Virus record (IMG/VR): IMGVR_UViG_3300009182_000042
Coordinates: 1 to 64,000 of that record
Length of the DNA stretch: 64,000 nucleotides
Reading direction: 5' to 3' (one strand)
Source: a virus
This document shows positions 26,901 through 39,827 of this stretch, one piece after another. The position numbers and the translations under genes were made by a program. Within the stretch, counting starts at the first letter, position 1; each line of letters begins with the position of its first letter. The notes under the pieces were generated by a model, which made no database searches, had not been told where the DNA came from, and was given only the letters and a program-made list of their open reading frames with translations.

Positions 26901-29900
26901 ATCAGTTACAATAAGCACTGTTTCAAGCGGTAGTATGACACTGACTGTGAATGCCGCTGGCGGAATTTGGGCAAACAATCAGTATTATATCAATACAATA
27001 CCAAGCTCTACCACATTCACTATTACCAATAGTTACAAGAGCGGTACAGCCTATACAATCACCAACACAGCCAGCAGTATGACTGCCACGGCAACATTTG
27101 GTCCTACTGCTACTGTGTTGTATTACAACAGTCCTATGATACATGGTAGTGTAACGTACAATGGCACACTGACCACAGTCAATGCCGCTGAGATTATTCG
27201 TGCCAACGTTGGATTTTTAAGTGCAGAAGCAACTGCATATGTGGCTGCCAGTTATGGCGGTTCAATTTCAAGCACAGCCGCAACAACAAACTTGATAACA
27301 ACTTCGGGCAATCACAACTTTACAGTTGGTGATCCTGTACAATTTAGTGGAAGTGTAGTTGGCGGGCTTAGTGCGGCAACAACTTATTATGTGTTGACTG
27401 TAAACAGCAACACAACATTCACAGTGTCGTTGACTCAAGTAAGCCAAGGTACACAAACGGCAGTGGCGCTAACAAATACAAGTAGTGCGTTCACTGTAAC
27501 TTATTTTAACACAGCACAAAGTTATATCACTTCATTCTTAAATGGAATGATCTACGACTTGCAATATACTGGAAACAGTAGAAGTTTGAGAGCTGTAGAG
27601 CTCTACAACAATGCTGTTGGTAGCTCCACTATCAGTAACATGTTCTTGGTACGTAATGGATCTGGACTTCGAAACATGACTTTGTCAGGTATTACAGGTA
27701 CCTTGAGTGCGGCAAATGCCTATGGTACAAAACGTCCAACAGGCGGTGCTTATACAAGCCTTGATCCAGGCTTTGGACCTAACGATACCAGTGTTCAAAT
27801 ATTGACACGCAGTACCTATGTACAAAATTGTACCATGTTTGGTTATGCCTGCGTGGGTGCAAAAGTTGACGGAGCACTGCATAGTGCGGGCAATAAGTCT
27901 ATTGTTTCTAACGATTATACTTGCGTTATCGGTGATGGTATTGGTTGGTGGAATACTGGCACTGGGTCTCTAGCAGAACTTGTTTCAGTTTTTAACTACT
28001 ACAGCTATTCAGGCTATCTAGCTGAGCTAGGTGGACGCATCCGTGCTACAAACGGTAACAGTTCTTATGGCACATACGGTGTGCTTGCCGAAGGTACTGA
28101 CACATTTGAAACTCCAATATATGCCAATTTAAATAACAGAGCGGCTGCCGCCACGATAACCACTGTGGTAACTGACAGCACTACACAGATTCTACGATTT
28201 GAATATGGTAATGCCGGTATCAACTATACAAATTCTGTTCCTACAGTTAACGGATCTGGTTACAACGCAGTGGCTTTCCAAGATGAATTCCGTGATGCCG
28301 CAGTATTTGAAACAAGATTGATTGATCCAAACAACACAGGATTAACTGGCGGAACAAGTTATGTGTCAGCAGTTAATGTGGGACAAACCAACGCCAACGG
28401 CGTGGGTTATCAACTGATTGCGGCTGCCGACACTGCACTAACTGGCGGGTATAATGGCATGAAGGTACAGATAACAGCTGGTACTGGTGTTGGACAAGTT
28501 GCTAATATTTTGGCTTTCAACAATGCCAGCAAATATGCACAAATTATTCGTCCAACATTTGCTACACTACCAGTGACAGCAAGTACAAATGCAACTGCCG
28601 CATCCAGCAGTAGTGCTTTCATAGCAACATATGCAGGAAGATATCCAACGCTGGTAGCACCTGTCATGGGATCAGGCTCTTATGTGGCCGGTATGTATCT
28701 AACTAGTAGCGGTACAGTCACAGCTGGTACATATATCACAGCAATCAACACTGGATCAATCACTAGTGCATCAATAGCCAGTTCAACATTTAGTTCAACT
28801 GGATCAATTGGCGCAAGTATTACCGGTGCTGGTACAGCAGCCAATCCATGGATAGCAACCATCACAGGTATGAGTAGCACCAGCAGTTTTGTAGTTGGTG
28901 CCCAGATCACTGCTACAAATGGTACAGGTACATTATACGGTAGCACTCCAACCAGTGTAATTGTAGCAAGTGTTCCAAGCACAACCAGTATCACATACAG
29001 CGTGATCGGCGGCACAATTCCCACAACAGGAACTGTTACCAACATTCAACAGACCATGTTGTCAGGCTCTGCATTTGCCAACTTGTTACCAGGTATGGTA
29101 CTAAGTGGTGGTAGTGTGATTGCTAGTTATGTTGCAGGACAGGTAACAGCTACTGGAACTGCACTGGCTACTGCCACAATGACTGGAACTATCAGTACAA
29201 ACACATTGACTCTAGCAACATTCACAGTTGGCTCAATTTACACAGTACAAGTTGGGCAATATGTTGCTCAAATTAGCGGAATACCAGCGGGCACATACAT
29301 AACCGCAGTGAACCCAGCAACTGGAGTGATAACAATTAACACAACATTGTATGGTGCAGTCAGTGGTAGCAACAGTACTTACACCGCAGGTGGTGCAGGC
29401 ACATATGCATTAACAGCTAACAGCTTTACAACAGTTACCGGCGCACCAACAACAGGTACTCAATATTTGTTGAATACTGCGCAGACTCAGATAGCCGCTA
29501 CTGTTACAGGCACACAGAACACATTAACTGTGGCCAGCAACGCATCGTTGTATAACACAATGCCGTTGTATCTTGGTACAGCAGTTGCACCGTTGAGTGG
29601 TGTTGCTATTTCGGCAACTGGAGCAATTTCATTTACCTCAACTACAACAGCACTACCAGCTAATACTCAAGTGGTTATTTCTGGTGCTAACGTTGGAACA
29701 GGCATAGTGGCGACAGGAACATTCTTTGTGGCTGCAAGCCCATCGCCAACAACAACTGGTGTAACATTATTAACTGCACTTTCTGGTGGTACAACTATCA
29801 GTACAACAGCAGGTACAGTGGTAACTAGCGGTAACTTATCCAGTGTCAATATTGGTTCAAGTGGTAACTTGACATTTACAGCATTAGGCGCGGCACTACC

Positions 29901-32900
29901 AGCAGGAACACCAGTTGTAATTAGTGGATCAAACGGTGGTGGTGGTACAATTGCCAACGGTACATACTATGTTGCTGTGACACCAACACCAACTTCAAGT
30001 GCAATAACATTGGTTACCACAAGCGGCGGCTCAACAAGCCCAACCACAACATCTGGTACTCCAAGCGGTTTGACATTTGCGTTTAGTTTGGTTAATCCAT
30101 TGACATTCACCTACACATTAACAGCACCGTTTGGATTATCTTCGTTTAGTGTGTACTACGTGAACGGCATCACCAACTCAAATGGCGCTGCCAGCACAAC
30201 ATTTAGTGTGACAACTACTGCATCTGGAACATCTCCAGTGGCAGTAAATTCTATTACAGGACAAAACGTGTCGCTGTATGCGGCTGGATGGGACCATGTG
30301 GTTCCAGGTAGTGTTATCAATAACACTACTGATTTGACATCAGCATACATTATAGAACCATCAATCAGCTATACAGGTCCAGGTTACACAGGCGTAGCAA
30401 GATCATTGGCAACCAGTGCCAGTTATGTGGGCGTTGCTTACGGTTCTGGAAACTATGTTGCTGTATCAACGGGCGCTACCACTACACAATATAGCACAAC
30501 TGGTCGTGCATGGGCCAACGGCGGCGCATTACCAAGTGCAACATCTTGGAATGCTGTAACATATGGCGGAGGCCAAGGCGCACAAGCCACAGTTACAGTT
30601 GGTGGTTTTGGCGGAAGCGGTGCAGTATTAACAGCAGTTGTGGTGGGCGGCCAAGTAACAGGCATTACTATTGTCAACGGTGGCTTCAACTATAACACAG
30701 TTCCAACAATCACCATTACTCCAGTCAGCGGAGGATCAGGTGCTTCGGCAATCTGTACAGTTCTAAATGGTACTATCACTACAGCTACCATGGTTATTAA
30801 TGGTTCTGGTTATGCTAGTGGTGCTACAGTTGCAGTGGTTACCAGTGCAGTTTCCGCAGTTACCACTGTCACACGAGGACAAAATTACGGATACAACAGC
30901 ACAACTCCATCTGTTACATTAAGTGCTCCATTTAGCGGCACAGTATGGAGCAGTGGTGGTAGTGGCACAAGTGGTAGTTACTACTATTTTGTGAATACTG
31001 GTGTAACTCCTAACGTAACCAACTACTATCAGGCCACAAGTACAGGTACATTTACCACAAGCGGCCCAACACATACCACCGGTACAGTGGCCAACAACAC
31101 AGTAAACTTGTTGTATGTGGGTACACAAGCCACAGTAACACCTACATTAACCAATAATGGTATCAGCAGTTATACAGTAACCGTAGCTGGATTTGGATAT
31201 TCAACTGTTCCTACAATTACTATTGCAGATTTGTCAGCAAGATTTGTGGCAATCAGCACAACAACAGCTGGTGCAAACGTGGCACCTACTGGAGTAGCAG
31301 GCGCATGGAATTCTATGACATTGCCAAGTGCAGGTTATAATGCAATTGCATATGGTCTAGGACAATATGTTGTAGTAGGCGGTACAGCCGGTGCAGGTAT
31401 TATAGCAAGCAGTAGCGATGGTATCAACTTCAATGCACGAACTGTTCCAGCAGGTGCATCAGCTCAGTATTTTAGTGCTGTGGCATACGGTTCTACAGGA
31501 ACAGGCGCATCTGGTAACACGTCAACTGGATTGTTTGTAGCCATACCTTTGTATGGTAACACACCTGTTACAAGTACAAACGGTACCACATGGGCGATTC
31601 CACAAACCGCAGGCGGATCCAATGTGACTTTGCCGGCTTCACTGGCATGGAGCGGGATTGCATATGGTAATGGTCGTTTTGTAGCAATTGCCAGCAATAG
31701 TTCTAGCATAGCTTACAGTCTTAACGGTGGCGGCGCTTGGAACTTGTCCACTGTTGCTGGAGGTTCTGGACTGCCAGGTGTTTACAGTTGGTCAAGTATT
31801 GCTTATGGTGAAGGTCAATTTGTGGCCATAGCCGCAAACAGTGCTGTAAGTGCTACCAGCTGGGACGGTATCAACTGGACTATACAGACATTACCAGCAA
31901 CACAAAACTGGAGCAGTGTGGCATTTGGTAACCCACTGGCCGCAACTATCGGATATAACCCGCTGTTTGTAGCAGTTGCAAATACTGCTGGAACATCTGC
32001 GGCTGTGATACATACTGGCGCAACGCCACAAGGCCGTGTCAAAGTAACTAGCAATGCAGTTAGTGAAATACGTGTGATTGAGCCAGGAAGTGGATTTGCA
32101 AAAGGTATTGTTACTGCAACAACCGCAACCACAAACGTTATCACAGCTGATAATATTGAAAACTTGTCAGCAAATCAACCAGTTGAGTTTAATACAGTAA
32201 GTGCAGGTGGGTTGGCTTTACAAACAACTTACTATGTGATTGGTTCCAGTATTACAACAACCTCAGCACCAGCCGGCACGTTCCAAGTGGCTACCACATC
32301 GGGTGGCACAGTACCAGTGACATTGACAACCACTTCACCAACCGGTATGACATACACAACTGGTCCTATAGTTACTATTACTGATCCAAACCGTATTAAT
32401 GCGGCATTGGTCAGAGTGCGTACAGGTGATGGAGTGCTTGGTAACCCTAGCTTTCCTAACAGAGGTGCTGCCAATGCAACTGCAACAGCAAACACAGTAG
32501 GTGACGGATATAGCGACATCTATCAGACCAGCACATTTATCAACATAAGCAATTTGTATACTTTACCAACTGCTGGTGCAAACGTGCAATTTGCATCAAT
32601 ATCAAATGTTTGGTACAAATTGGTTGCAGTGACAAACTTGTTGGGTATTCCAGGCAACTACACAGCCACATTCCAGATAAATCCAGGACTTAGCGTGTAT
32701 CTTGCTCCTACCACTGGTAATTTGATTACCACAAGATTGAAATACAGTCAGGTTCGCTTGACTGGACATGATTTCTTATATATCGGTACTGGAAACCAGA
32801 CACAGACAAATTATCCGTATGTCAATGTAAGTAGTGCAGTTTCTGCCAATCAAACATTGGGCAGTGTGGGTGGCCGTGTGTTCTTTACAAGTACAGACCA

Positions 32901-33315
32901 GGACGGCAACTTCAACGTTGGAAACTTGTTTGGAGTACAGCAATCAACAGGTACTGCTAGTTTGAACGCCAGTGCGTTTAACTTGGCTGGATTACAGAGT
33001 TTGACACTGGGAGCGGTATCAGTTGGTGTGGGATCCGCTACTATTACAAGTTTCAGTACTGATCCGTACTTTACTGCTAATAGTGACAACATTATTCCTA
33101 CGCAGAAAGCTATCAAGAGCTATATCACAGCCCAGATAGGTGGTGGTTCTAGTAGCTTGAACGTAAATACATTGACAGCGGGCGTGATATTCATTGGTAA
33201 TAATCAAATATATAACACTACCGGATATCAACAGATATACGTAAGCAGTAAAATGCTATTCACAGGTGGAATTGATGGGGCACCAGTTGCTCTTACATTC
33301 TTCGCACAAAGATAA
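20971..33315 (+). CDS. Giant tail fibre/baseplate structural protein (4114 aa), paralogue of 12843
   Basis: Same ordered blocks as 12843 (K.GR..F...G.W start, VKTGTY.E.LPI.VP, NMFL.RNG, GWDHV, YSQ.RLT.HDFL, RVFFTSTDQDGNF) with more inserted modules. Confidence 0.8.
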   Translation: MAEYKLGRIKFVYQGTWTGSSTYVVDDVVSVGGKTYICIVSNTSSAVFATDLASSYWSLVADGTRWTGTWANATYYQLGDQVLYGGIVYQATTAHTSATATATLTATGFTVSGGTATLTYASQVVQPFLVGATITLAGFTPTQTSGTVNTVNTTFTVVTCTTTQVTFALTGTYTVSVLGTVAGASQLGLELNQANWTAFASNINYLSTWSVNTRYKVNDLVTYGGYTYIATTAHVSANTTALGLEQDQAKWSTFNPGLSYQGAWSGSSVKYRLNDIVKYGASLFICTTAHVSSATFSTSNFATFVNGLQYVPGGSNAWSSATTYVTGDIVTYGGNLYVASQIASNQNPTTATTYWNLYTGGFSYQGAWTGVTSYKIGQVVNLGGYTYLALADNTQNVLTLTGTTVTTNIITLSASTTALVANLPVVFASTVGGLTGSQTYYVIGSSITANTFQVASISGGVSPVTLSTTTGQSVSVTTQPQPPFATYWSRLNSGIRYNPTTGTYNAVSATNVTGTGTSATFNVTASKTTYSVTLASGGSGYSSTGGSNTIKIVGTSLGGLSPANDITITITGQSSGAITTFTSVGYAVTWSTAVSYVLGDVVYFGSNSYICVSGHVSASGNKPDADTVGAYWNLLAAGNESAVLTVTGDLFYYGSTGPTRLPIGTDGQVLRVNSNTPSWAYYGQINNIVYVSSATGVDTLATSQGTTLDKPWRTIQFACQQVENGYLNLNLGNLIQINKQFLLKEVNNFVLYNYTFNITATTTSTNLITVGGSSTIAQTTTTNLYSNMPVVFNVTAGGLTAGTTYYVIGSSITSTQFQVATNPSTSGAQTAVTLSTTSTANLGQYVYSQSKTERDTGFIVDGIIFDITHTGNSKTIANALTYFNSAGTGYTSGVLAYDISPFVKALNYLSTLITSNVGANTAPGTNYQTTISSAVTVTGASGTGAIATITFSAQSYAYNVGSQITVASVSPAGYNGTYVVLSSTTTSVSYANTTTASYISGGTVNYTRATQQINTTYTAEAAALTRIPVLVGLVTAPLSLGNTTPITGILANATTTISVKTGTYNEVLPIVVPSYTVVYGDELRSSTVQPAVANITLANDKPKTIVALTRLQTQLGNLLQNTSITGSTGNTQYLSVSASTGAASVATLTFAAQTTAPFSVGQYITVSGFTSSAAGYNGSYAVTACTTTTVSYANATTASTSGSPIVSGQNTQLSVADVGSSTAVNTINTFTSSINNMIFNGIAQVPAISITTVTGYNSSFLPGHSTGVTQITSNYGFIKAELTAFMNTNYSSVWSSLGVAGQQIYLLQIQYILDGMQYDMAYGCNNQSIINGSSYYSLNINQIPLVNQPAYLATFQRLQAIVGQIVRAQSVAATAGNGATQTTGSDAGVAPAAFASARIADVIYWFTNGNANSTVNTITGSISGTTLTVSSQTSAVAPGTLLTGTGINGMYIVNQISSSAGAQAATTYSSGGGNGTSTFVVASATGIAAGQFITGTGIPAGTYVASTYSSGSTTVPIANYFGSPVTFTLQASGAYLFYPANTAGTYTLSITGGTGTAFTSLSTFTPVNSGAYTLVGSNALQLAYTQLQARATEIASDTQVFVAKYNQQYNISATLTSRDAGLIVNALSFDVLFTTNFNTIAVGRAFNRSNTSAQAVVNNVNNQLYATTAAINFIGFKAKMIAAAGGQVQAQTLIDDIIYRINGQATTTLTTATVSTNVLTASSTSAMAVNQPVSFTNLPANINTTVTSTLAAFAGSITATATVALTGVGTITSNGGGSFTFGTAQSAGTFYVGQVLTPTGSLSGITWTGYTAGTSYVVSVTNGTSTVTLTTVTGNVLTVTQGTASGITFNTYLATITTTGLVIGSAIALSSTGFGGLTTATTYYVIGFGPTASASCALSATAGGNSVALSNGSGTMIAQTTTNLLNLTGYVGTLGITVGQQCYFSGGTYAGISPYQLYYIVSASGTGITVSTTSGGSSVTISTVSSGSMTLTVNAAGGIWANNQYYINTIPSSTTFTITNSYKSGTAYTITNTASSMTATATFGPTATVLYYNSPMIHGSVTYNGTLTTVNAAEIIRANVGFLSAEATAYVAASYGGSISSTAATTNLITTSGNHNFTVGDPVQFSGSVVGGLSAATTYYVLTVNSNTTFTVSLTQVSQGTQTAVALTNTSSAFTVTYFNTAQSYITSFLNGMIYDLQYTGNSRSLRAVELYNNAVGSSTISNMFLVRNGSGLRNMTLSGITGTLSAANAYGTKRPTGGAYTSLDPGFGPNDTSVQILTRSTYVQNCTMFGYACVGAKVDGALHSAGNKSIVSNDYTCVIGDGIGWWNTGTGSLAELVSVFNYYSYSGYLAELGGRIRATNGNSSYGTYGVLAEGTDTFETPIYANLNNRAAAATITTVVTDSTTQILRFEYGNAGINYTNSVPTVNGSGYNAVAFQDEFRDAAVFETRLIDPNNTGLTGGTSYVSAVNVGQTNANGVGYQLIAAADTALTGGYNGMKVQITAGTGVGQVANILAFNNASKYAQIIRPTFATLPVTASTNATAASSSSAFIATYAGRYPTLVAPVMGSGSYVAGMYLTSSGTVTAGTYITAINTGSITSASIASSTFSSTGSIGASITGAGTAANPWIATITGMSSTSSFVVGAQITATNGTGTLYGSTPTSVIVASVPSTTSITYSVIGGTIPTTGTVTNIQQTMLSGSAFANLLPGMVLSGGSVIASYVAGQVTATGTALATATMTGTISTNTLTLATFTVGSIYTVQVGQYVAQISGIPAGTYITAVNPATGVITINTTLYGAVSGSNSTYTAGGAGTYALTANSFTTVTGAPTTGTQYLLNTAQTQIAATVTGTQNTLTVASNASLYNTMPLYLGTAVAPLSGVAISATGAISFTSTTTALPANTQVVISGANVGTGIVATGTFFVAASPSPTTTGVTLLTALSGGTTISTTAGTVVTSGNLSSVNIGSSGNLTFTALGAALPAGTPVVISGSNGGGGTIANGTYYVAVTPTPTSSAITLVTTSGGSTSPTTTSGTPSGLTFAFSLVNPLTFTYTLTAPFGLSSFSVYYVNGITNSNGAASTTFSVTTTASGTSPVAVNSITGQNVSLYAAGWDHVVPGSVINNTTDLTSAYIIEPSISYTGPGYTGVARSLATSASYVGVAYGSGNYVAVSTGATTTQYSTTGRAWANGGALPSATSWNAVTYGGGQGAQATVTVGGFGGSGAVLTAVVVGGQVTGITIVNGGFNYNTVPTITITPVSGGSGASAICTVLNGTITTATMVINGSGYASGATVAVVTSAVSAVTTVTRGQNYGYNSTTPSVTLSAPFSGTVWSSGGSGTSGSYYYFVNTGVTPNVTNYYQATSTGTFTTSGPTHTTGTVANNTVNLLYVGTQATVTPTLTNNGISSYTVTVAGFGYSTVPTITIADLSARFVAISTTTAGANVAPTGVAGAWNSMTLPSAGYNAIAYGLGQYVVVGGTAGAGIIASSSDGINFNARTVPAGASAQYFSAVAYGSTGTGASGNTSTGLFVAIPLYGNTPVTSTNGTTWAIPQTAGGSNVTLPASLAWSGIAYGNGRFVAIASNSSSIAYSLNGGGAWNLSTVAGGSGLPGVYSWSSIAYGEGQFVAIAANSAVSATSWDGINWTIQTLPATQNWSSVAFGNPLAATIGYNPLFVAVANTAGTSAAVIHTGATPQGRVKVTSNAVSEIRVIEPGSGFAKGIVTATTATTNVITADNIENLSANQPVEFNTVSAGGLALQTTYYVIGSSITTTSAPAGTFQVATTSGGTVPVTLTTTSPTGMTYTTGPIVTITDPNRINAALVRVRTGDGVLGNPSFPNRGAANATATANTVGDGYSDIYQTSTFINISNLYTLPTAGANVQFASISNVWYKLVAVTNLLGIPGNYTATFQINPGLSVYLAPTTGNLITTRLKYSQVRLTGHDFLYIGTGNQTQTNYPYVNVSSAVSANQTLGSVGGRVFFTSTDQDGNFNVGNLFGVQQSTGTASLNASAFNLAGLQSLTLGAVSVGVGSATITSFSTDPYFTANSDNIIPTQKAIKSYITAQIGGGSSSLNVNTLTAGVIFIGNNQIYNTTGYQQIYVSSKMLFTGGIDGAPVALTFFAQR

Positions 33316-33711: not shown

Positions 33712-35655
33712 ATGGCACGTTATAACAGCTCAGCAGTTGCTACACTAAGTTCGGCAACGGTTATCACAACTCCAAGTCAGGGGTTGTTGACAGAATTGGT
33801 CGGATCACCGCCTTATGCGGTGCAAATTCCCGATCCAACTATTTGGTATGGTCAAACACAGACCTACTATAATAACTCAGGAGGTGTTGTAACACTGAAT
33901 ACTCCTGCCGGTACATTTATTGGTCCAGGAAGTTCAGGCAGTTCAAGTTTACAGATGCCCAATCAAAGTGTTGTGGTATTGGCATCGGACACTACCAAAT
34001 ATGTTATCTCATCATTCGACGGCGGCCCAACTTATGCTCAAACTGGTAACGGTAACAGCAGTAGTTATGCATTGTTGTTGAACGGTGACTTGGTGCAAAG
34101 TGCATCAACCATGAACTTGGTCAACACCAACACCACAACTGTCAACGCATTTGGCGCAGCCACAAGTATCAATATTGGTGCTCCATTCAGCACAACAACC
34201 TTTAACGGCAGTGTGTTCGTCAAAGGCGGCTTGGTGCAAGTCAACTCCAGCAGTGTGTTGGTAGAAGATAAAAATATTGAAATTGGTTATATCAACCCTA
34301 TCAGCTACGGCGGCGGCACAATAACAACCATCGGTGGATCCATTTCCGGTTCAACCACATTTACCAGTATTAGTGGTACAAAGATTGCCGCAGGTTATAC
34401 TGGCACAGTGTCTGGTGTGAGTCAATTCAGCACCAGCGGTGCTGGCACTGGTGCAACATTCAACATCACCATAAGCGGTGCTGGCACAACATACACTGGT
34501 GTTACCACAATTACGGTGGTCGCCGGCGGCGTGGGTTATGCACTGGGTGATACTGTAACCATTGGTGGTAGTGTGTTTGGCGGCTCAAGTGCCAACGGTA
34601 CCAACAACCTGACATTCACAATCAGCAACGTGAACGCCAGTCCTTGGTATGCCACAATTACAGGCATAACCAACACCACCAACTTGGTGGTAGGCAGCGC
34701 AATCAGTGCCACAAACGGTACTGGTAGTTTTGGTTCTGGTAATACTTCTCAGTTGGTTTTGAGCAATCTAAGTAGTACCAGCATACAGATTGTGGTCACA
34801 GGCGGCACAACGCCAGTAGCGGGTACAGTTACCAATATTACACCGGGTTCCAACGATGCTTATGCCAATGACGGTGGTATCAAGCTGTATGGCTCAACAA
34901 ACAAAACACTGATTTGGTCGCTGAATTCAGTTGGACCAACCAGTGGCAATACTGGCCAACCATCATGGACCACCAGCGAAGGCTTGTCTTTCAGAAGTGC
35001 CACTGCCAGTAACTTTGGTATCCAAACATACCCTGGATCGGGCACTGGTTTTAACATATTAACCAACGGTGTAACCAACGGCACAGTCAACATTGCTACT
35101 GATGCAGTAACTAATAACCTGTTCACAGCTGGTACTGCAAACACCATTGGTGCATCTGGATCTGGCACAACTACTATTAGAAATACCACTTTAACATTCA
35201 GCGGTACCACTCTAAATGCAACTGCCATGACCAACTTCAACGGTAAAACTACTGGTTGTTTCATGTATATTGGTAGCCTGGCTATTGGTACAACCAACAA
35301 TCCAGGTGACGGTCAGATCAATGCAACCAGCAACATCATAGCGTATTACTCAGACGACAGACTAAAAACACGATTGGGCACCATTGAAAATGCTCTTGAA
35401 AAATTGGAAACACTAACTGGTTTCTACTATGAAGCCAACGAAACAGCACAGGCACTGGGTTACAAATCAGTGCGTGAAGTAGGTGTGTCAGCCCAAGATG
35501 TGCAAAAGATCCTACCAGAAATTATCAAGCCAGCACCTATTGACGCTAAGTACATGACAATTCAATACGAAAAGTTAACACCATTAGTAATTGAAGCAGT
35601 TAAGGAACTGAGTGCCATGGTAAAAGAGTTGAAAGCCAAGATTGATAAGGAATAA
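33712..35655 (+). CDS. Tail fibre with C-terminal intramolecular chaperone (peptidase S74)
   Basis: C-terminal YYSDDRLK...GVSAQDVQKILPE...YEKLTPLVIEAVKEL followed by a coiled coil, the classic S74 autocleaving chaperone pattern. Confidence 0.88.
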   Translation: MARYNSSAVATLSSATVITTPSQGLLTELVGSPPYAVQIPDPTIWYGQTQTYYNNSGGVVTLNTPAGTFIGPGSSGSSSLQMPNQSVVVLASDTTKYVISSFDGGPTYAQTGNGNSSSYALLLNGDLVQSASTMNLVNTNTTTVNAFGAATSINIGAPFSTTTFNGSVFVKGGLVQVNSSSVLVEDKNIEIGYINPISYGGGTITTIGGSISGSTTFTSISGTKIAAGYTGTVSGVSQFSTSGAGTGATFNITISGAGTTYTGVTTITVVAGGVGYALGDTVTIGGSVFGGSSANGTNNLTFTISNVNASPWYATITGITNTTNLVVGSAISATNGTGSFGSGNTSQLVLSNLSSTSIQIVVTGGTTPVAGTVTNITPGSNDAYANDGGIKLYGSTNKTLIWSLNSVGPTSGNTGQPSWTTSEGLSFRSATASNFGIQTYPGSGTGFNILTNGVTNGTVNIATDAVTNNLFTAGTANTIGASGSGTTTIRNTTLTFSGTTLNATAMTNFNGKTTGCFMYIGSLAIGTTNNPGDGQINATSNIIAYYSDDRLKTRLGTIENALEKLETLTGFYYEANETAQALGYKSVREVGVSAQDVQKILPEIIKPAPIDAKYMTIQYEKLTPLVIEAVKELSAMVKELKAKIDKE

Positions 35656-36176
35656 TGATGTCAGATCAAGACAATAATCAGCCAGTCGATCCAAAAGCAA
35701 TCCAACCGCAGACCATTACTGGCGGTACTATTTCGTTCGCCAACATTACAGCTGAAATTGGGCAGGGTAACAGCAATGTGGGTTTGCAATTTTTGAACAC
35801 CTATGTTGCACCCAGTCTAACTGGATATTTTCAAAATGCTCCCAACGGTGGCAACTGTGTGGGCTACAATAGCAACTGCGGGTCAACTCCACGTCCCACA
35901 TTCCGTAGCACATATCCTGACATGAACGAATTTAGGAACTTAACTTATTTCAATAGTCAAAACAAGGGACAATGTAACAACGGTAATTGTACCAACAACA
36001 ACTGTAACTGCGGAAATATCGCCTGCTACAACTGTACTATCAATGGTCGTATTAACTGTCAGAATTGTGACGGACAAGCATGGCTACAAGCTAATTGTAA
36101 CTGCGCCTGTACAATGAATTGTAATTATACCAGCTACAGCGTGGCTTGTAATTGCAACTGCAATTGTAATTGTTAA
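35655..36176 (+). CDS. Asn-Cys-rich protein; candidate radical SAM substrate and fibre-tip protein
   Basis: 19 Cys, 17 of them in the last 67 aa, 15 as Asn-Cys; ends ACNCNCNCNC; coupled to the fibre gene by a TAATG overlap. Confidence 0.75.
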   Translation: MMSDQDNNQPVDPKAIQPQTITGGTISFANITAEIGQGNSNVGLQFLNTYVAPSLTGYFQNAPNGGNCVGYNSNCGSTPRPTFRSTYPDMNEFRNLTYFNSQNKGQCNNGNCTNNNCNCGNIACYNCTINGRINCQNCDGQAWLQANCNCACTMNCNYTSYSVACNCNCNCNC

Positions 36177-36193
36177 TACACTAAAGGTAACCC

Positions 36194-37651
36194 ATGAAAT
36201 TTGAAATATTAGCATCACGGAACAAAGACGACGAGAAGATATTTTATTACGATAACCAAACAAACACGCTGAGTGACGAAACTGGGTTTGTTTATGAGTA
36301 TCCCCATGCTCTGGCCAGTGTTACACATACTCACGTACAAAAACCCTATGTTAGTTTTGATAAAGATCGTCCTCTTAAAAAATCTAAATCCGCACGTATA
36401 GTAAAAATTCAGATGGGGCTTAGTTGCAATTACAGTTGTGACTATTGCAGTCAGAAATTTGTAGAACGTCCAAAAGAAACCAACGCCAAAGATATTGAAA
36501 ATTTTATGGAACTGTTCAACAACCTGGAGTTTGATGAACAACAGGGACTAAAGGTGGAGTTCTGGGGCGGCGAGCCGTTTGTGTATTGGAAAACCATGAA
36601 GCCCCTGGCTGAAGCGATTGCAGATCGTTTTGAAAGCTGGCAGAAAAAACCCATGTTCAGTGTGATTACTAATGGTAGTCTATTGACTGAAGAAATCTGT
36701 GCATGGTTATACAGCATGAATTTCAGTATAGCTATCAGTCATGATGGCCCTGGTCAGCATGTGCGTGGTCCAGATCCATTTGATGATCCAAAAAAGCGTG
36801 AAATTGTGTTGGACCTTTATCAGATTCTTAGACCTTTAGATCGTATCAGTTTCAACAGCATGCTCAACAGCAAGAACACCAGTCGCAAAGAAATTTATGA
36901 TTGGTTTGTGGAATTCACCAACGATCCAAGTGTTGTACTGGGCGAAGGTGCATTTGTTGATGCATATGATGCAGATGGTTTAGAAAACTCAATGAAAACC
37001 AAAGCTGAACATTTTGCTTTTAGACAACGTGCTTTCGGAGAAATTTATGGCTCCGCTGGTGATATTGGATTCACCGGCATCCTACAAAAAGTAGATAATT
37101 TTACTGAAGCTGTGCTTACACATAAAAATGCAGAATTTTTAGGGCAGAAATGCGGTATGGACGACGAGGGTGTTATAGCATTTGACCTAAAAGGCAATGT
37201 TATTACCTGTCAAAACGTCAGTGCATTGGAGATTGGCAAAAACGGTGAATCGCATCTGGGTGGAAACCTTGCAGATCTAGACAGTGTGGAAATCAAAACT
37301 GCCACTCACTGGAGCAATCGTAAAGAATGTAGCGGTTGCCCAGTGCTACATATTTGTCAAGGGGCTTGTATGTTCCTAGACGGTGAATATTGGACTGCCA
37401 GTTGCAACAATGCATATAGTGATGCTATTCCCCTGTTTGCCACCAGCATTATGAAAATAACCAACGGGTATATTCCTATGACTGTAAAAAGTGAAGAATT
37501 GCCCTTAGAAAGACAGGATATCTTTGGGACTATGATGAAACACCAAGAATGGACACCAAAAAAGATAATCCCCATCAAAGTTGTAAGCGAAAAAGTAGCT
37601 GTTATTGACAATGTCGAAGTCTACGGACAAAGCACTGTGATAAATAGTTAA
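36194..37651 (+). CDS. Radical SAM enzyme with SPASM domain (peptide/protein maturase-like)
   Basis: CNYSCDYC (CxxxCxxC), FWGGEP, ITNG, ISHDG; full seven-Cys SPASM pattern Cx13Gx4C...Cx2Cx5Cx3C-x11-C. Confidence 0.92.
   Translation: MKFEILASRNKDDEKIFYYDNQTNTLSDETGFVYEYPHALASVTHTHVQKPYVSFDKDRPLKKSKSARIVKIQMGLSCNYSCDYCSQKFVERPKETNAKDIENFMELFNNLEFDEQQGLKVEFWGGEPFVYWKTMKPLAEAIADRFESWQKKPMFSVITNGSLLTEEICAWLYSMNFSIAISHDGPGQHVRGPDPFDDPKKREIVLDLYQILRPLDRISFNSMLNSKNTSRKEIYDWFVEFTNDPSVVLGEGAFVDAYDADGLENSMKTKAEHFAFRQRAFGEIYGSAGDIGFTGILQKVDNFTEAVLTHKNAEFLGQKCGMDDEGVIAFDLKGNVITCQNVSALEIGKNGESHLGGNLADLDSVEIKTATHWSNRKECSGCPVLHICQGACMFLDGEYWTASCNNAYSDAIPLFATSIMKITNGYIPMTVKSEELPLERQDIFGTMMKHQEWTPKKIIPIKVVSEKVAVIDNVEVYGQSTVINS
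37641..37646 (+). promoter_or_regulatory. Putative late promoter (TAAATA)
   Basis: At the 3' end of the rSAM gene, upstream of the AAGGAG SD of 37674. Confidence 0.45.
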
Positions 37652-37673
37652 AGAGAGCACAAGGAGCCATAAA

Positions 37674-38654
37674 ATGAATTTGTATATTTCCACACATTGT
37701 CGTAGATATTATGCTGTTGAAGCAGTTGTTACCTCTGAAGGGATCGAATATAAAACTTATCCAGCATATCTAATATCAGAACTGAAAAAATACTGGGCCT
37801 CCTTGGCAAACAGTGGTATTCCGGGTACTTTGATTTTTGATGATCAACATCCTATGATTACCCCTGATATGAAACCACTGTGGACTACAGATACTGTTGC
37901 TGTGTATGATGTGCAAGTTGCAAACAACACCTATACCAGCGGAGTTATAGATTTTCAATTGGATATAAAAAATAATAATGATTATAGCGATCATGCACAA
38001 TACGATATATATTCTCCAGGGTGCCTGGCTGTAACAACGGTATTTGACGAACATAGAGACAAACATAGCAATGATATTATGAGCTATAGCGCAATGACCA
38101 AAGCACAGACAGTATCCAACGGTATATCTAGAGGCTACATGATTCCGATACATAACTCTGTGGCACAAACATCTCATTCAAGAATGAAGCCGCATGTGCA
38201 TCAGCGTTTGACAGGCAATGCACCTATGATCAGCATCATGGTTCCACTAGCAGACATGGACCCAACAGATTGGGAGATTGTGTTCACTGTGGCAGAAGAA
38301 GGACTGCTACGTGTGAACGGCAATACTGTTGAACCAATTCCAGTGGGATACCTATTGAATCATATGCCTAAAGTATGGTTTAAGAAAAACACTGCCACCG
38401 TAAACACTAATAATTTTGTTGATTTAGAATTTTATTTAGGCACTGCTAGCGGAAGCCCGATTACTGGCCACGATGCAACAGTGTATATCAAAACCACTGG
38501 CGGCCAACTCAATAAAACTCAAGTGCGAACAGTTAACGGAGAAGGTAAAGTGAAACTGATTTCAAATCATTTGGAATCAGGCGATGTTATCAAAGTAAGT
38601 GTTGGCTTTCAATACTATTCCGGCACAGATGATTGTATTGTTACAGTCAAATAA
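37674..38654 (+). CDS. Hypothetical protein with a probable C-terminal Ig-like (Big_1-like) domain
   Basis: SD present. The C-terminal ~95 aa (ATVYIKTTGGQL...VRTVNGEGKVKL...IKVSVG) resembles bacterial Ig-like folds. Confidence 0.6.
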   Translation: MNLYISTHCRRYYAVEAVVTSEGIEYKTYPAYLISELKKYWASLANSGIPGTLIFDDQHPMITPDMKPLWTTDTVAVYDVQVANNTYTSGVIDFQLDIKNNNDYSDHAQYDIYSPGCLAVTTVFDEHRDKHSNDIMSYSAMTKAQTVSNGISRGYMIPIHNSVAQTSHSRMKPHVHQRLTGNAPMISIMVPLADMDPTDWEIVFTVAEEGLLRVNGNTVEPIPVGYLLNHMPKVWFKKNTATVNTNNFVDLEFYLGTASGSPITGHDATVYIKTTGGQLNKTQVRTVNGEGKVKLISNHLESGDVIKVSVGFQYYSGTDDCIVTVK

Positions 38655-38660
38655 CATGGC

Positions 38661-39827
38661 ATGAAACTGGCCATAATAGGCGATGGCAAAGCCAGTGCCA
38701 TAGCAATACTAACAGTTCTAGATCTAGTAAAAAATAAAAATTACACAGATCTAGAACTTTTTATTTTGCACGATACTATACGTGCCAACGACCAGTTGGC
38801 AACCGCTGCCAATCCTGTGTTAAATCGATTGCTCAAAAATGTGATTAACTTTAATGATCACGCGGACATTAAAAAAATACAAGGCAGCATGAGACTAGGA
38901 ATCAGCCACACGTGGCACGATGACTCGTTGGCCAAATGCTGGATACAATCTCCAAGTCCGGGTCTACATTTTAATGGTAATATTTTCTTTGATTTTGTAG
39001 TAGAGTCAGTATGTAATCTTTATGCGAATGTCACTTATCAAACTGGGAAAATGCGAAAATTAAATCAGTCTGATCAGTATGCCACGGTGTCACTGGACGA
39101 AACTGAATTGCTATTTGATTATGTAATAGACACAACCGGATTAGATCAGACCAATTATACAGTACCGGACTTTGCTCCAGTAGACAAAATAATAACAGCC
39201 GAAACTAAAAATTCCTATAATGAATCGCATACATCGATTACATTCCATGACAATGGCTACAGTTTAGGAATACCACTAGTAGGCAAGAAAGTTGTATATT
39301 ATTTTTATAACAGTAAAATTATCAATGTAGATCAAGCAGTGGACAATTTTAATCAAATTGCCAGTTTAAATACCGATCCTCAATTGAAAGATTTCAATCC
39401 CAGATATAAAAAATACAGTATAAATGATAGAATCATATATGCAGGACCCGGTTTGTTCTATATGGAGCCAATACAGGCATTGCCCTTTCACTTTTATCAA
39501 GATACAATAAAAATAATATTGTCTAATCTCATGTTAGAAAATTATAACAAATCGTTAGACATAGAAGCTAATCAAGGTTATATTACCAACATGGAATTAA
39601 AACAAGACTTGATTGCACTTACCTATCATAATAAAAATAATTATTCATCAGAATTTTGGAAACAAGCTAGAGATAACAGTAAAAAATACTTGTCGCAGTC
39701 AGAGCATTTTAAAAAATTTGTAGATAATTATAAAAATACAGGTAATTTAGAATATGATTTGCATGACAACAAAGTGGCCGTGAAATATATCACAGGCTTG
39801 GGCATAGATCTAGATAAGATCTACTAA
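38661..39827 (+). CDS. Tryptophan-halogenase-like flavoprotein, divergent
   Basis: KLAIIGDGKAS Rossmann-like start, FDYVIDTTG, GYSLGIPL (in place of WxWxIP), FYMEPIQA and SEFWK, in the family order. Confidence 0.65.
   Translation: MKLAIIGDGKASAIAILTVLDLVKNKNYTDLELFILHDTIRANDQLATAANPVLNRLLKNVINFNDHADIKKIQGSMRLGISHTWHDDSLAKCWIQSPSPGLHFNGNIFFDFVVESVCNLYANVTYQTGKMRKLNQSDQYATVSLDETELLFDYVIDTTGLDQTNYTVPDFAPVDKIITAETKNSYNESHTSITFHDNGYSLGIPLVGKKVVYYFYNSKIINVDQAVDNFNQIASLNTDPQLKDFNPRYKKYSINDRIIYAGPGLFYMEPIQALPFHFYQDTIKIILSNLMLENYNKSLDIEANQGYITNMELKQDLIALTYHNKNNYSSEFWKQARDNSKKYLSQSEHFKKFVDNYKNTGNLEYDLHDNKVAVKYITGLGIDLDKIY

What the first reader, a model, noticed from the sequence alone, without database searches (positions are those of the whole stretch)
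33712..39827. Phage-encoded RiPP-like cassette at the tail-fibre locus: Asn-Cys-rich protein, radical SAM/SPASM enzyme, Ig-like protein and halogenase-like enzyme
Seen: five co-oriented, tightly spaced genes (overlap, then gaps of 17, 22 and 6 nt): S74 fibre, 173-aa Cys-rich protein, rSAM/SPASM enzyme, 326-aa unknown, halogenase-like flavoprotein. Known: rSAM/SPASM enzymes encoded next to Cys-rich substrates install thioether crosslinks (sactipeptides, ranthipeptides/SCIFF, QhpD on the protein QhpC), and NxxcB links Cys sulfur to the Asn beta-carbon in an NxxC motif. Inference: the phage uses natural-product-style chemistry to staple a virion protein, probably the receptor-binding tip, in a cytoplasm where disulfides do not readily form. 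I know of no characterised system of this kind, but could not search the literature.
Basis: partly seen in the sequence, partly recalled or inferred. Interest (0 to 1): 0.92.

Follow-up and report, generated by a model that had tools for sequence, protein, structure and literature searches.

The report
Radical-SAM enzyme paired with cysteine-rich fibre-tip protein
A freshwater phage, and many related phages and prophages, encode an iron-sulfur radical enzyme right next to a tail-fibre-associated protein that ends in alternating cysteines, which suggests (untested) that these viruses chemically cross-link the tip of a fibre.

Summary
Observation confirmed. Five co-oriented genes lie at 33712-39827: an S74 fibre, a 173-aa protein with 19 Cys and 35 Asn, a radical SAM enzyme with CxxxCxxC and a 7-Cys SPASM pattern, a 326-aa ORF, and a degenerate halogenase-like flavoprotein.

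The conserved unit is the rSAM plus a Cys-rich "NC module". All 39 IMG/VR loci found through the rSAM carry the module within 36 nt. Of 80 loci found through the module, 79 carry the rSAM; the exception is a truncated contig.

In bacterial genomes (prophage tail regions, rSAM 32-64% identical), 45 of 46 full-flank loci carry a co-oriented (xC)>=3 run. It is usually the extreme C-terminal tail of a tail-fibre-type protein, or sits just before a Hint domain. Such runs were absent from farther flanks (0 in 0.65 Mb against 221 in 1.50 Mb).

p326-like and 2OG-oxygenase-like genes are frequent partners. The halogenase-like gene is dispensable.

The enzyme groups with thioether-forming maturases but meets no named family's cut-off.

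Best reading: radical-SAM cross-linking of a fibre-tip module. The chemistry and the virion location are untested.

I found no paper on this system; the nearest characterised analogue is CrpC/CrpA (2026).

The parts
33712..35655 (+). Tail fibre with a C-terminal S74 intramolecular-chaperone domain (647 aa). Its stop overlaps the start of the Cys-rich gene.
   Evidence: One search gives the ORF. One search gives PF13884 at E 9.5e-10 (residues 547-604). One search gives 13 tail-fibre PHROGs, best E 9e-21. S74-type fibres lie directly upstream of the short-form module in relatives.
35655..36176 (+). 173-aa Asn/Cys-rich protein ("NC module", short form), the proposed rSAM substrate. It has a conserved N-terminal ~55-aa domain and a Cys-rich core.
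   Evidence: 19 Cys, 35 Asn. No Pfam, PHROG or NCBIfam family. Homologous module next to the rSAM in 39/39 loci and in the alignments.
36063..36089 (+). Invariant signature N137-C-D-x-Q-x-W-L-Q145 of the module. It contains C135xxxD139 and C138xxQ141.
   Evidence: Invariant columns of A3/A4. This motif alone retrieved 80 loci, 79 of them with the rSAM..
36147..36173 (+). Terminal CNCNCNCNC run (residues 165-173), the extreme C-terminus.
   Evidence: Equivalent (xC)n tails occur in 74 loci at <=6 aa from the stop, in 40 before the end domain and in 6 before a Hint domain.
36194..37651 (+). Radical SAM/SPASM enzyme (485 aa) of an unnamed maturase-like family.
   Evidence: PF04055, PF13353. (phrog_1802, E 4.5e-63). 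(best hit PapB, 73 bits against a cut-off of 340). (2730 homologues at E<=1e-20)..
36425..36448 (+). CxxxCxxC radical SAM cluster motif (C78, C82, C85).
   Evidence: Conserved in 32/32 sequences.
37151..37405 (+). SPASM-type seven-Cys region (C320, C339, C379, C382, C388, C392, C404).
   Evidence: for the spacing. Conserved in 32/32 sequences, with C404 in 31/32.
37674..38654 (+). p326: a fast-evolving partner protein with a conserved C-terminal Ig-like end. It is a candidate fibre-tip partner or assembly factor.
   Evidence: alignment A1. (homology to RSP15 ORF047, E 5e-9). (45-60% identity where flanking genes are 91-100%). (p326-like gene in 37/46 full-flank bacterial loci). The Ig-like call is weak.
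38661..39827 (+). Halogenase-like flavoprotein (388 aa) with degenerate motifs. It is an optional accessory.
   Evidence: PF04820, E 6.9e-15. (phrog_2928). (GDGKAS, ATAANP, GYSLGIP against the canonical GWMWKIP of L020). Absent in L004/L005.

Best explanation
The 485-aa radical SAM/SPASM enzyme post-translationally modifies the 173-aa Asn/Cys-rich protein encoded 17 nt upstream. The most likely chemistry is the joining of cysteine sulfurs to carbon atoms of nearby residues (thioether cross-links), as its nearest characterised relatives do.

The modified protein is a fibre-associated virion part. Its conserved N-terminal domain would dock it on the S74 fibre encoded just before it. Its Cys-rich core and (NC)4 tail would form a covalently stapled distal tip.

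p326 is a co-evolving partner, either a tip partner or an assembly factor. The halogenase-like flavoprotein here, and the 2OG oxygenases and Asp/Asn-hydroxylase-type enzymes in relatives, are optional tailoring or accessory genes.

Shown: gene content, motif conservation, tight and reciprocal co-occurrence, and tail-fibre context.

Inferred: that the Cys-rich protein is the substrate, that the bonds are thioethers, and that the product sits in the virion.
For: Pairing of the rSAM and the module:
- 39 of 39 IMG/VR loci with a full rSAM have a co-oriented Cys-rich ORF <=36 nt away, in two different gene orders.
- 79 of 80 loci retrieved with the module motif alone contain the rSAM. The exception is a contig that ends where its siblings carry the rSAM.

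Deep conservation:
- In 80 bacterial-genome loci (rSAM 32-64% identical), 50 have a + strand CxCxCxC run within 3 kb. There were 59 near hits against 13 far hits in ~404 kb each.
- With full flanks, 45 of 46 loci have a run.
- (xC)>=3 runs number 221 in 1.50 Mb near the rSAM and 0 in 0.645 Mb far from it.

Fibre link:
- The window module follows an S74 fibre.
- NC-tailed prophage proteins hit tail-fibre PHROGs (E 6e-10 and 4e-11), and one such cassette (L138) lies beside the central tail fibre J gene (E 1e-137).
- JWF gp028 carries NCNCDCNCNCSC immediately before a Hint domain.
- The long form's end domain caps virion-type proteins of up to 1859 aa.
- The run is C-terminal, that is, at the distal end of a fibre.

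Enzyme class:
- The radical SAM and SPASM Cys are conserved.
- The best NCBIfam hits are thioether and Cys-peptide maturases.
- The best PDB hits are 8VPO, CteB and anSME.

Precedent: CrpC (rSAM/SPASM) installs thioethers on the 28.8-kDa Cys-rich protein CrpA (PMC13692751; abstract and passages read).

Candidate acceptor motifs: C135xxxD139 and C138xxQ141 include invariant residues.

Expression: RNA-library contigs with 0 mismatches cover parts of the fibre, the fibre/Cys-rich junction, the rSAM and p326. This is weak evidence.
Against: - There are no biochemical or proteomic data.
- No named maturase family's cut-off is met (best 73 bits against 340), so the chemistry cannot be transferred by homology.
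- In the terminal run Asn is freely replaced by Ala, Asp, Gln, Ser or Tyr, so no acceptor residue is fixed there.
- 61 of 80 module loci are the long form, placed after the rSAM among PhoH, 2OG-oxygenase and B12-rSAM genes rather than next to a fibre. That form ends in a hydrophobic segment that could be a membrane anchor.
- No recognisable RRE was found in the rSAM N-terminus.
- RSP15 has only a weak ...NTNCQCGN end.
- One full-flank bacterial locus (L198) lacks a run.
- The loci are related to one another, and some contigs were fetched twice, so the counts are not independent events.
- RNA-library contigs cannot exclude DNA carry-over.
- No structure model could be made.
Confidence: 0.55

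Rival explanations
1. The partnership is the same but the chemistry differs. The rSAM modifies the NC module by something other than thioethers. Candidates are oxidation of Cys to formylglycine (anSME-like), a carbon-carbon cyclophane link at the invariant W-L-Q or the Y-N-C triplets, epimerisation, or a cross-link between chains or to p326.
For: anSME aligns over the full length (TIGR03942 residues 74-392, E 2.6e-14; 4K36). The cyclophane formers YhhB and AmcB, DynA and the epimerase YydG are also among the hits. W143, L144 and Q145 are invariant or nearly invariant. No family cut-off is met, so the reaction is open.
Against: The highest-scoring named relatives act on Cys sulfur (PapB, QhpD, CcpM, SCIFF/CteB). 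The only universally conserved feature of the tails is Cys itself. There is no anSME-type C/S-x-P/A-x-R motif in the 173-aa protein. The aromatic residue is Tyr instead of Trp in some members.
Confidence: 0.22
2. The product is not a virion part. The Cys-rich protein is a precursor of a released or membrane-anchored RiPP-like product, such as a bacteriocin, a superinfection-exclusion factor or a host-manipulating factor. Its conserved N-terminus would be a leader, and the position beside fibre genes would be incidental.
For: The module has a leader-plus-core layout. RP12 has a 65-aa precursor-like ORF ending SNCNCNCACTRGSL before three rSAM genes, and no fibre gene is annotated beside it. The long form ends in a hydrophobic segment and sits among auxiliary-type genes.
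Against: In bacterial loci the run is part of proteins that match tail-fibre PHROGs, and the loci examined lie among tail genes. The JWF run is inside a fibre-type protein. The end domain of the long form caps long virion-type proteins. No protease or exporter gene was seen in the cassettes examined.
Confidence: 0.13
3. The alternating Cys run is a metal-binding or iron-sulfur-binding element, metallothionein-like or analogous to the HxH iron sites of the T4 gp37 tip (recalled). It is not an rSAM substrate, and the rSAM acts on another target.
For: C-x-C runs are classic metal ligands (general knowledge). The residue between the Cys is unconstrained but small, as expected for one face of a strand. 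The CrpA paper also raises metal binding (Discussion passage).
Against: This does not explain the reciprocal, very tight gene linkage across rSAM identities from 93% down to 32% and across three architectures. SPASM maturases with adjacent Cys-rich genes act on those genes' products in every characterised case named and in PMC13692751.
Confidence: 0.07

Closest known systems
CrpC/CrpA of Methanococcus voltae (PMC13692751, 2026; abstract and passages read)
   Same: A SPASM radical SAM enzyme encoded beside a large Cys-rich protein rather than a short peptide. The substrate has a conserved N-terminal part and a repetitive Cys-rich C-terminal part, and C-X-X-Q/D-type motifs. CrpC installs thioether (ranthionine) links.
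   Different: CrpC/CrpA is archaeal and cellular, with unknown function, possibly metal-related. The paper does not mention phages. Its repeat is a 17-residue unit, not an (NC)n run. Sequence relatedness to the window proteins was not tested because no Crp sequence was available to me.
QhpD/QhpC (with flavoprotein QhpG) of quinohemoprotein amine dehydrogenase
   Same: An rSAM/SPASM enzyme cross-links Cys to Asp/Glu in a small Cys-rich protein subunit. TIGR03906 is the second-best NCBIfam hit (E 8.3e-19). A flavoprotein partner that acts on a Trp of the same substrate (recalled) parallels the halogenase-like gene and the near-invariant Trp.
   Different: The score of 67.6 bits is far below the cut-off of 453, and only residues 70-187 align. 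There is no dehydrogenase context. The flavoprotein here is dispensable. The QhpG parallel is recalled, not tested.
Ranthipeptide and SCIFF maturases (PapB, CteB) and other Cys-rich-peptide maturases (CcpM, CefB)
   Same: These are the best full-length NCBIfam hit (PapB, residues 71-394, E 1.8e-20) and the second-best PDB hit (CteB 5WGG). They have an adjacent Cys-rich substrate, and the window protein has a CxxxD motif.
   Different: All scores are far below the equivalog cut-offs. The substrate here is a 125-340-aa protein or a fibre tail, not a ~45-aa peptide. The context is phage structural genes.
NxxcB (streptococcal NxxC radical SAM RiPP system)
   Same: The window protein has ten overlapping NxxC registers. 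A Cys-to-Asn beta-carbon thioether is a known rSAM reaction (recalled; only a search listing was seen).
   Different: Asn is not conserved in the terminal run of relatives; Ala, Asp, Gln, Ser or Tyr replace it. NxxcB was not among the 25 listed of 48 NCBIfam hits. Membership was not tested.
T4-type fibre tips: the gp37 HxH iron-binding needle and the gp38-type adhesin encoded after an S74-bearing gp37 (recalled)
   Same: An alternating-residue motif lies at the distal end of a fibre. A small protein is encoded directly after a chaperone-bearing fibre gene and has an N-terminal attachment part and a repetitive C-terminal part.
   Different: There is no sequence similarity. Cys replaces His or Gly motifs, and a dedicated radical enzyme is encoded alongside, which those systems lack. 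This comparison rests on recall only.
Flavin-dependent tryptophan halogenases (PrnA, RebH)
   Same: Pfam PF04820 is met (55 bits against a cut-off of 21). The family profile hits PrnA and RebH at 1e-37 (that profile included the canonical L020 sequence).
   Different: The window copy is 388 aa against ~510-550 aa. It has GDGKAS for GxGxxG, ATAANP for the GEAT-type motif and GYSLGIP for WxWxIP (motif names recalled). Halogenase activity is doubtful.

Membership tests
Radical SAM / SPASM-domain maturases (superfamily level) | CxxxCxxC motif for the SAM-binding 4Fe-4S cluster | tested here: met
   CNYSCDYC at residue 78. C78, C82 and C85 are conserved in 32/32 sequences. PF04055 at E 8.7e-9.
Radical SAM / SPASM-domain maturases (superfamily level) | C-terminal seven/eight-Cys SPASM pattern for auxiliary clusters | tested here: met
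   C320-x18-C339 (with GxxxxC), C379xxCx5Cx3C392 and C404, conserved in 31-32 of 32 sequences. Caveat: PF13186 was not reported for the window protein at E<=0.1, and the motif definition is recalled.
Radical SAM / SPASM-domain maturases (superfamily level) | Substrate encoded next to the enzyme | tested here: met
   39/39 and 79/80 loci. 45/46 full-flank bacterial loci.
Radical SAM / SPASM-domain maturases (superfamily level) | RiPP recognition element (RRE) in the enzyme or a partner | tested here: inconclusive
   The ~70 aa before the core have no Pfam or NCBIfam match. No structure model was possible.
Radical SAM / SPASM-domain maturases (superfamily level) | Demonstrated modification of the substrate | not testable with these tools
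   This needs co-expression and mass spectrometry.
PapB-family ranthipeptide maturase (NF047865) | Score at or above the NCBIfam equivalog cut-off | tested here: not met
   73.4 bits against a cut-off of 340.
QhpD (TIGR03906) | Score at or above the NCBIfam equivalog cut-off | tested here: not met
   67.6 bits against a cut-off of 453. Only residues 70-187 align.
Anaerobic sulfatase-maturating enzyme (TIGR03942) | Score at or above the cut-off, and a C/S-x-P/A-x-R substrate motif | tested here: not met
   53.1 bits against a cut-off of 349.45. No [CS].[PA].R motif in the 173-aa protein (the motif is recalled).
NxxcB-type NxxC system | Conserved NxxC acceptor/donor register in the substrate | tested here: inconclusive
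   There are ten NxxC registers in the window protein, but Asn is replaceable in the tails of relatives. Enzyme relatedness was not tested.
CrpC/CrpA-type protein thioether system | Sequence relatedness of the enzyme and substrate to CrpC/CrpA | not tested
   No Crp sequence was available in a tool. The comparison is by architecture only.
Flavin-dependent tryptophan halogenase (PF04820) | Pfam gathering score | tested here: met
   55.3 bits against a cut-off of 21. Residues 99-363 match profile positions 150-422.
Flavin-dependent tryptophan halogenase (PF04820) | GxGxxG FAD motif and WxWxIP motif (recalled definitions) | tested here: not met
   The window copy has GDGKAS and GYSLGIP. The canonical L020 homologue has GGGSAG and GWMWKIP.
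Peptidase_S74 intramolecular chaperone fibres | PF13884 domain at the C-terminus of a fibre | tested here: met
   E 9.5e-10, 39.1 bits against a cut-off of 22, residues 547-604 of 647.
Bacterial Ig-like (Big_1/Invasin_D3) domain in p326 | Significant profile match | tested here: inconclusive
   Invasin_D3 matched in 2 of 7 family members, best E 0.0019, and not in the window copy. ESM Atlas scores were <=0.86, which are leads only.

The most novel reading that the evidence does not exclude
A widespread, so far undescribed class of enzymatically cross-linked phage receptor-binding tips. A dedicated radical SAM/SPASM enzyme, often with 2OG oxygenases, Asp/Asn-hydroxylase-type enzymes or halogenase-like flavoproteins, installs covalent thioether staples in the C-terminal (xC)n module of tail-fibre proteins. 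It occurs in freshwater T4-like phages, siphoviruses such as JWF, and prophages across Alpha- and Betaproteobacteria. This would be the first use of RiPP-type radical chemistry to build a virion part.
Probability: 0.4. Interest if true: 0.9.

Novelty: new variant of a known kind. Interest (0 to 1): 0.8.

Why it matters
Radical SAM/SPASM maturases are known from small natural-product peptides and from very few proteins (QhpC, and since 2026 CrpA). A phage structural protein as substrate would extend this chemistry to virus assembly.

It would explain how a cysteine-rich fibre tip can be stabilised when it is made in a reducing cytoplasm. It would also add a new, enzyme-dependent determinant of fibre maturation and possibly of host recognition.

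The family is large: 2730 rSAM homologues at E<=1e-20, and 1335 hits to the profile of module plus end domain.

The idea is directly testable, because cultured carriers exist: Achromobacter phage JWF, Ralstonia phage RSP15, and isolate genomes such as Thalassobacter stenotrophicus CECT 5294, Limnohabitans parvus II-B4 and Burkholderia paludis MSh1.

For RiPP enzymology it offers a new SPASM clade with an unusually simple alternating-Cys substrate.

Tried and rejected
- DNA search of the cassette against cultured phages (blastn) gave no match.
No AF2 model and no fold search were made.
- ESM Atlas: p326 has only a poor model (pLDDT 0.43, pTM 0.37) and all neighbours score <=0.86. The Cys-rich protein has no model, and its only neighbours are unnamed viral clusters.
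- The PDB profile search for p326 found nothing meaningful (best E 0.068).
- Pfam, PHROGs and NCBIfam have no family for the Cys-rich protein, for p326, or for the long form with its end domain.
TATAAATA occurs 0 times. The sigma-70 and terminator scans were near background (30 against 20.7 and 8 against 5.8). I therefore make no operon or promoter claim.
- An Asp/Asn-hydroxylase EGF-type consensus in the module was considered and dropped, because by eye I could not fit the recalled consensus to the sequence.
- A correlation between halogenase presence and Trp at the invariant aromatic position was rejected. L020 has a canonical halogenase, but its module has Tyr at that position.
- The halogenase-like gene had no RNA-library contig in the three runs laid.
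- Small-share runs (X4-X21) are not used for habitat beyond "freshwater", which is carried by the high-share DNA runs. Two of those may be the source sample.
- Literature: nine searches, with passages read in PMC12801897, PMC7159879, PMC9959647, PMC9228384 and PMC2853527. None describes an rSAM acting on a phage fibre or an (NC)n protein.
The genome paper on JWF (not held) and supplements with virion proteomics or Crp sequences may bear on this and were not seen.

Full report
**The observation**

One search confirms five co-oriented ORFs at 33712-35655, 35655-36176, 36194-37651, 37674-38654 and 38661-39827. They are separated by a 1-nt overlap and by gaps of 17, 22 and 6 nt.

- The first is a tail fibre with a C-terminal Peptidase_S74 chaperone domain (PF13884, E 9.5e-10; tail-fibre PHROGs down to 9e-21).
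- The second has 19 Cys and 35 Asn in 173 aa. Fifteen of the 19 Cys follow Asn, 17 Cys lie in the last 67 residues, and the protein ends CNCNCNCNC, written with mixed codons.
- The third is a radical SAM protein (PF04055). It has CNYSCDYC at residue 78 and a SPASM-type seven-Cys pattern at C320-C404. All of these Cys are conserved in 31-32 of 32 non-redundant homologues, including very distant ones.
- The fourth has no family in any library.
- The fifth passes Pfam's Trp_halogenase threshold.

The window is the structural block of a distant T4-like myovirus. It encodes a sheath, a tube, a terminase, a gp15-like protein and UvsX. It lies on an 84,052-bp contig from freshwater metagenomes. In that contig the 173-aa ORF is the only real ORF with dense Cys.

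**What is conserved**

The rSAM belongs to a large unnamed family, with 2730 proteins at E<=1e-20 and phrog_1802 at E 4.5e-63.

Forty-two IMG/VR loci were fetched with it. In all 39 where my pattern found a full-length rSAM, a co-oriented ORF with at least 8 Cys lies within 36 nt. Three loci were not evaluated in that count:
- L015, because my pattern missed its rSAM, although it has the module upstream;
- L044 and L045, because they are truncated.

The partners are homologous (alignments). They share a conserved N-terminal ~55 aa (MTLPssG.I....I..E.G...L.FLNgY), followed by GNCNNGNC..NCNC..GNIQC.NC...NC.NCD.Q.WLQ..C..C..YNC...NCNC. The invariant columns are G105, C107, C124, N137, C138, D139, L144, Q145, C148, N155, C156, C167 and C169.

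Two architectures exist.
- A short form (125-176 aa) lies upstream of the rSAM and ends in (NC)n, (AC)n or (DC)n. It usually follows an S74 fibre, as in the window.
- A long form (~300 aa) lies downstream of the rSAM. In it the module continues as SKIIC[TA]KL... into a further ~160-aa domain.

The reciprocal test used only the module motif NCDxQx[WY]LQ. It returned 80 loci, of which 79 contain the rSAM. The exception, L066, is a contig that ends about 200 nt after the module, exactly where its siblings L064, L068 and L069 carry the rSAM. Some contigs are shared between the two IMG/VR sets, and the loci are related to one another. The counts therefore describe conservation, not independent events.

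**Deeper relatives and the fibre link**

Three cultured phages carry rSAM homologues at 43-46% identity: RSP15, JWF and 2-1.
- In JWF the gene two places upstream (gp028) is a fibre-type protein, with Shufflon_N similarity and a T4 gp36 note in its annotation. It contains NCNCDCNCNCSC immediately before a Hint domain that begins CFPAGT.
- In RSP15 a "side tail fiber" fragment ends ...NTNCQCGN, which is a weak case. It is followed by a homologue of the window's 326-aa protein (E 5e-9), a 288-aa ORF and the rSAM.
- The jumbo phage RP12 has an rSAM at 25% identity. It also has an unannotated 65-aa ORF ending SNCNCNCACTRGSL ahead of three rSAM genes.

A scan of one genome per prokaryote species gave 80 loci in Beta- and Alphaproteobacteria and a few other groups, with rSAM identity of 32-64%.
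- Fifty of the 80 have a + strand CxCxCxC run within 3 kb. There were 59 hits near the rSAM against 13 in equally large far flanks.
- Among the 46 loci with at least 3.5 kb on both sides, 45 have a co-oriented (xC)>=3 run, 37 have a p326-like gene and 31 have a 2OG-oxygenase-like gene. These counts come from my own iterated HMMs.
- The loci without a run are almost all cut upstream. L198 is the one full-flank exception.

Over all 202 loci, such runs number 221 within 4.5 kb of the rSAM (1.50 Mb) and 0 farther away (0.645 Mb).

The run-bearing proteins in these genomes are tail-fibre-type. The PHROG tail-fibre matches are E 6e-10 for L151, 4e-11 for L169 and weaker for L138. Two others, L132 and L185, had no PHROG match. 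In the eight loci inspected the cassette lies among tail genes, in L138 next to the central tail fibre J gene (E 1e-137).

The position of the run within its protein is as follows:
- extreme C-terminus (<=6 aa from the stop) in 74 loci;
- followed by the end domain in 40;
- followed by a Hint domain in 6;
- elsewhere in 21, many of these being inner runs of long forms or within 11 aa of the stop;
- not found by this strict pattern in 61, mostly long forms that have only NCNC, or cut contigs.

The long form's end domain is itself a terminal module of proteins of up to 1859 aa. These include Gly-rich fibre-like proteins and one with an N-terminus like that of RSP15 ORF044, by eye. Among cultured phages only Synechococcus phage SynMITS9220M01 has this domain. 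If Hint and the end domain are removed after folding, the (xC)n run would be the mature C-terminus, the distal end of a fibre, in all architectures. Hint self-cleavage is established knowledge, but removal of the end domain is pure inference.

**The enzyme**

All 25 listed of 48 NCBIfam hits are radical SAM families, almost all of them peptide or protein maturases (one is a viperin family). In order, the best are PapB (ranthipeptide; residues 71-394; E 1.8e-20), QhpD, geopeptide, Nif11-type, CcpM (Cys-rich peptide), HxsB and anSME. Every score is far below its curated cut-off, for example 73 bits against 340.

By sequence the nearest solved structures are 8VPO, CteB (the SCIFF thioether synthase), anSME and YydG.

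The enzyme is therefore a new clade of SPASM maturase-type enzymes. It is not a member of any named family, and its reaction cannot be read off by homology.

Within the substrate, C135xxxD139 and C138xxQ141 resemble the CxxxD motif (recalled) and the C-X-X-Q/D motif (PMC13692751) of thioether systems, and D139 is invariant with Q141 nearly so. In the terminal run only Cys is constant. The alternating residue is Asn, Ala, Asp, Gln, Ser or Tyr in different lineages. This argues against an Asn-specific (NxxC-type) reaction there.

**The accessory genes**

p326 evolves much faster than its neighbours. It is 45% identical in L004 and L005, where the rSAM is 91-93% identical. In L044 it is 60-64% identical, while the flanking genes are 98-100% identical. 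Its ends are conserved and its middle is variable. In bacterial loci it sits directly after the run-bearing fibre gene. That is the usual place of fibre assembly or adhesin genes (recalled). I read it as a tip partner or an assembly factor. The Ig-like call for its C-terminus is only weakly supported.

The halogenase-like gene is absent from the two nearest relatives. It is only 28-32% identical in the other window-type loci, apart from 98% in L044, which is nearly the same phage. The window copy lacks the GxGxxG, GEAT-type and WxWxIP motifs. Canonical 500-aa halogenases occur in 8 of 80 module loci and in L020.

Long-form loci instead carry 2OG-FeII_Oxy_5 genes (58 of 80) and an Asp/Asn beta-hydroxylase-family gene (56 of 80, by tblastn similarity to the L023 proteins), and sometimes a B12-rSAM (12 of 80). 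The window's own contig has two 2OG-FeII_Oxy_5 genes about 27 kb away. These look like interchangeable tailoring enzymes, but no function can be assigned to them.

**Expression**

Contigs from three lake metatranscriptome libraries match, with no mismatches, parts of the fibre, the fibre/Cys-rich junction (35539-35843), the rSAM and p326. This is compatible with expression but does not exclude DNA carry-over.

**What is known**

Nine full-text searches found no description of a radical SAM enzyme acting on a phage fibre or on an (NC)n protein.

The closest characterised system is CrpC/CrpA of Methanococcus voltae (PMC13692751; abstract and passages read). There a SPASM enzyme installs thioethers on a 28.8-kDa Cys-rich protein. 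That paper stresses how few protein substrates are known and does not mention phages. I checked the paper, and I re-derived the module-rSAM linkage and the end domain independently here.

**Verdict**

The rSAM/NC-module pair is a strongly conserved, fibre-associated system across very different phages and prophages.

The most likely mechanism is radical-SAM cross-linking, probably by thioethers, of a fibre-tip module. My confidence in the whole statement is 0.55. It is about 0.9 for the enzyme-substrate partnership, about 0.65 for a virion location and about 0.5 for thioether chemistry.

Noticed in passing
window 12843-20939 and 20971-33315: Two giant + strand ORFs (2698 aa and 4114 aa) lie directly upstream of the fibre and cassette. 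The C-terminal 600 aa of the larger one is 68-88% identical in the window-type relatives.
   Followed up: no
whole window: The T4 late-promoter word TATAAATA occurs 0 times in 64 kb, against 4.7 expected. GATAAATA occurs 4 times against 2.75 expected, which is not significant.
   Followed up: partly
L023:9895-10398 and proteins P0128, P0159, P0163, P0174: An unnamed ~160-aa "end domain" ([GS]KIIC[TS]KL[YFH].LG...PWAE.MAY.MG... with a hydrophobic end) caps the extreme C-terminus of many proteins of 230-1859 aa. It has no Pfam or PHROG family. Among cultured phages it occurs only in Synechococcus phage SynMITS9220M01.
   Followed up: partly
L003:961-1156 (Ralstonia phage RP12): An unannotated 65-aa ORF ends SNCNCNCACTRGSL. 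It lies just upstream of a cluster with three radical SAM genes and looks like a RiPP precursor.
   Followed up: partly
L023:7195-15313: In the long-form loci there is a dense enzyme cluster: PhoH, the rSAM/SPASM enzyme, the Cys-rich protein, two small ORFs, a 2OG-FeII_Oxy_5 gene, two unassigned ORFs, an Asp/Asn beta-hydroxylase family gene (PF05118) and a B12-binding radical SAM gene.
   Followed up: partly
L044:264-1259 against window 37674-38654: This is a mosaic. p326 is only 60-64% identical, while the flanking rSAM end, the halogenase-like gene, the NUDIX gene and the gp15 gene are 98-100% identical. This suggests recombinational replacement of the middle of p326.
   Followed up: partly
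L126:12570-14894 (contig 76570-78894, outside the window): A 775-aa protein has a Major tropism determinant N-terminal domain (Mtd_N, E 6.5e-14). A carbamoyltransferase lies at L126:8652-10163.
   Followed up: no
P0123 (388 aa): This is a module variant with internal repeat expansions (NGNC..., CSNCQVCTPINC x2, YNCSTSAVSYNC x3). It hints at a repetitive, solenoid-like build of the Cys-rich core.
   Followed up: no
L001:7114-7980 (RSP15 ORF046) and L002:7117-7839 (JWF gp029): The ORFs directly before the rSAM in RSP15 (288 aa) and JWF (240 aa) have no Pfam family. They occupy the place taken by 2OG-oxygenase-like genes in the prophage loci.
   Followed up: partly
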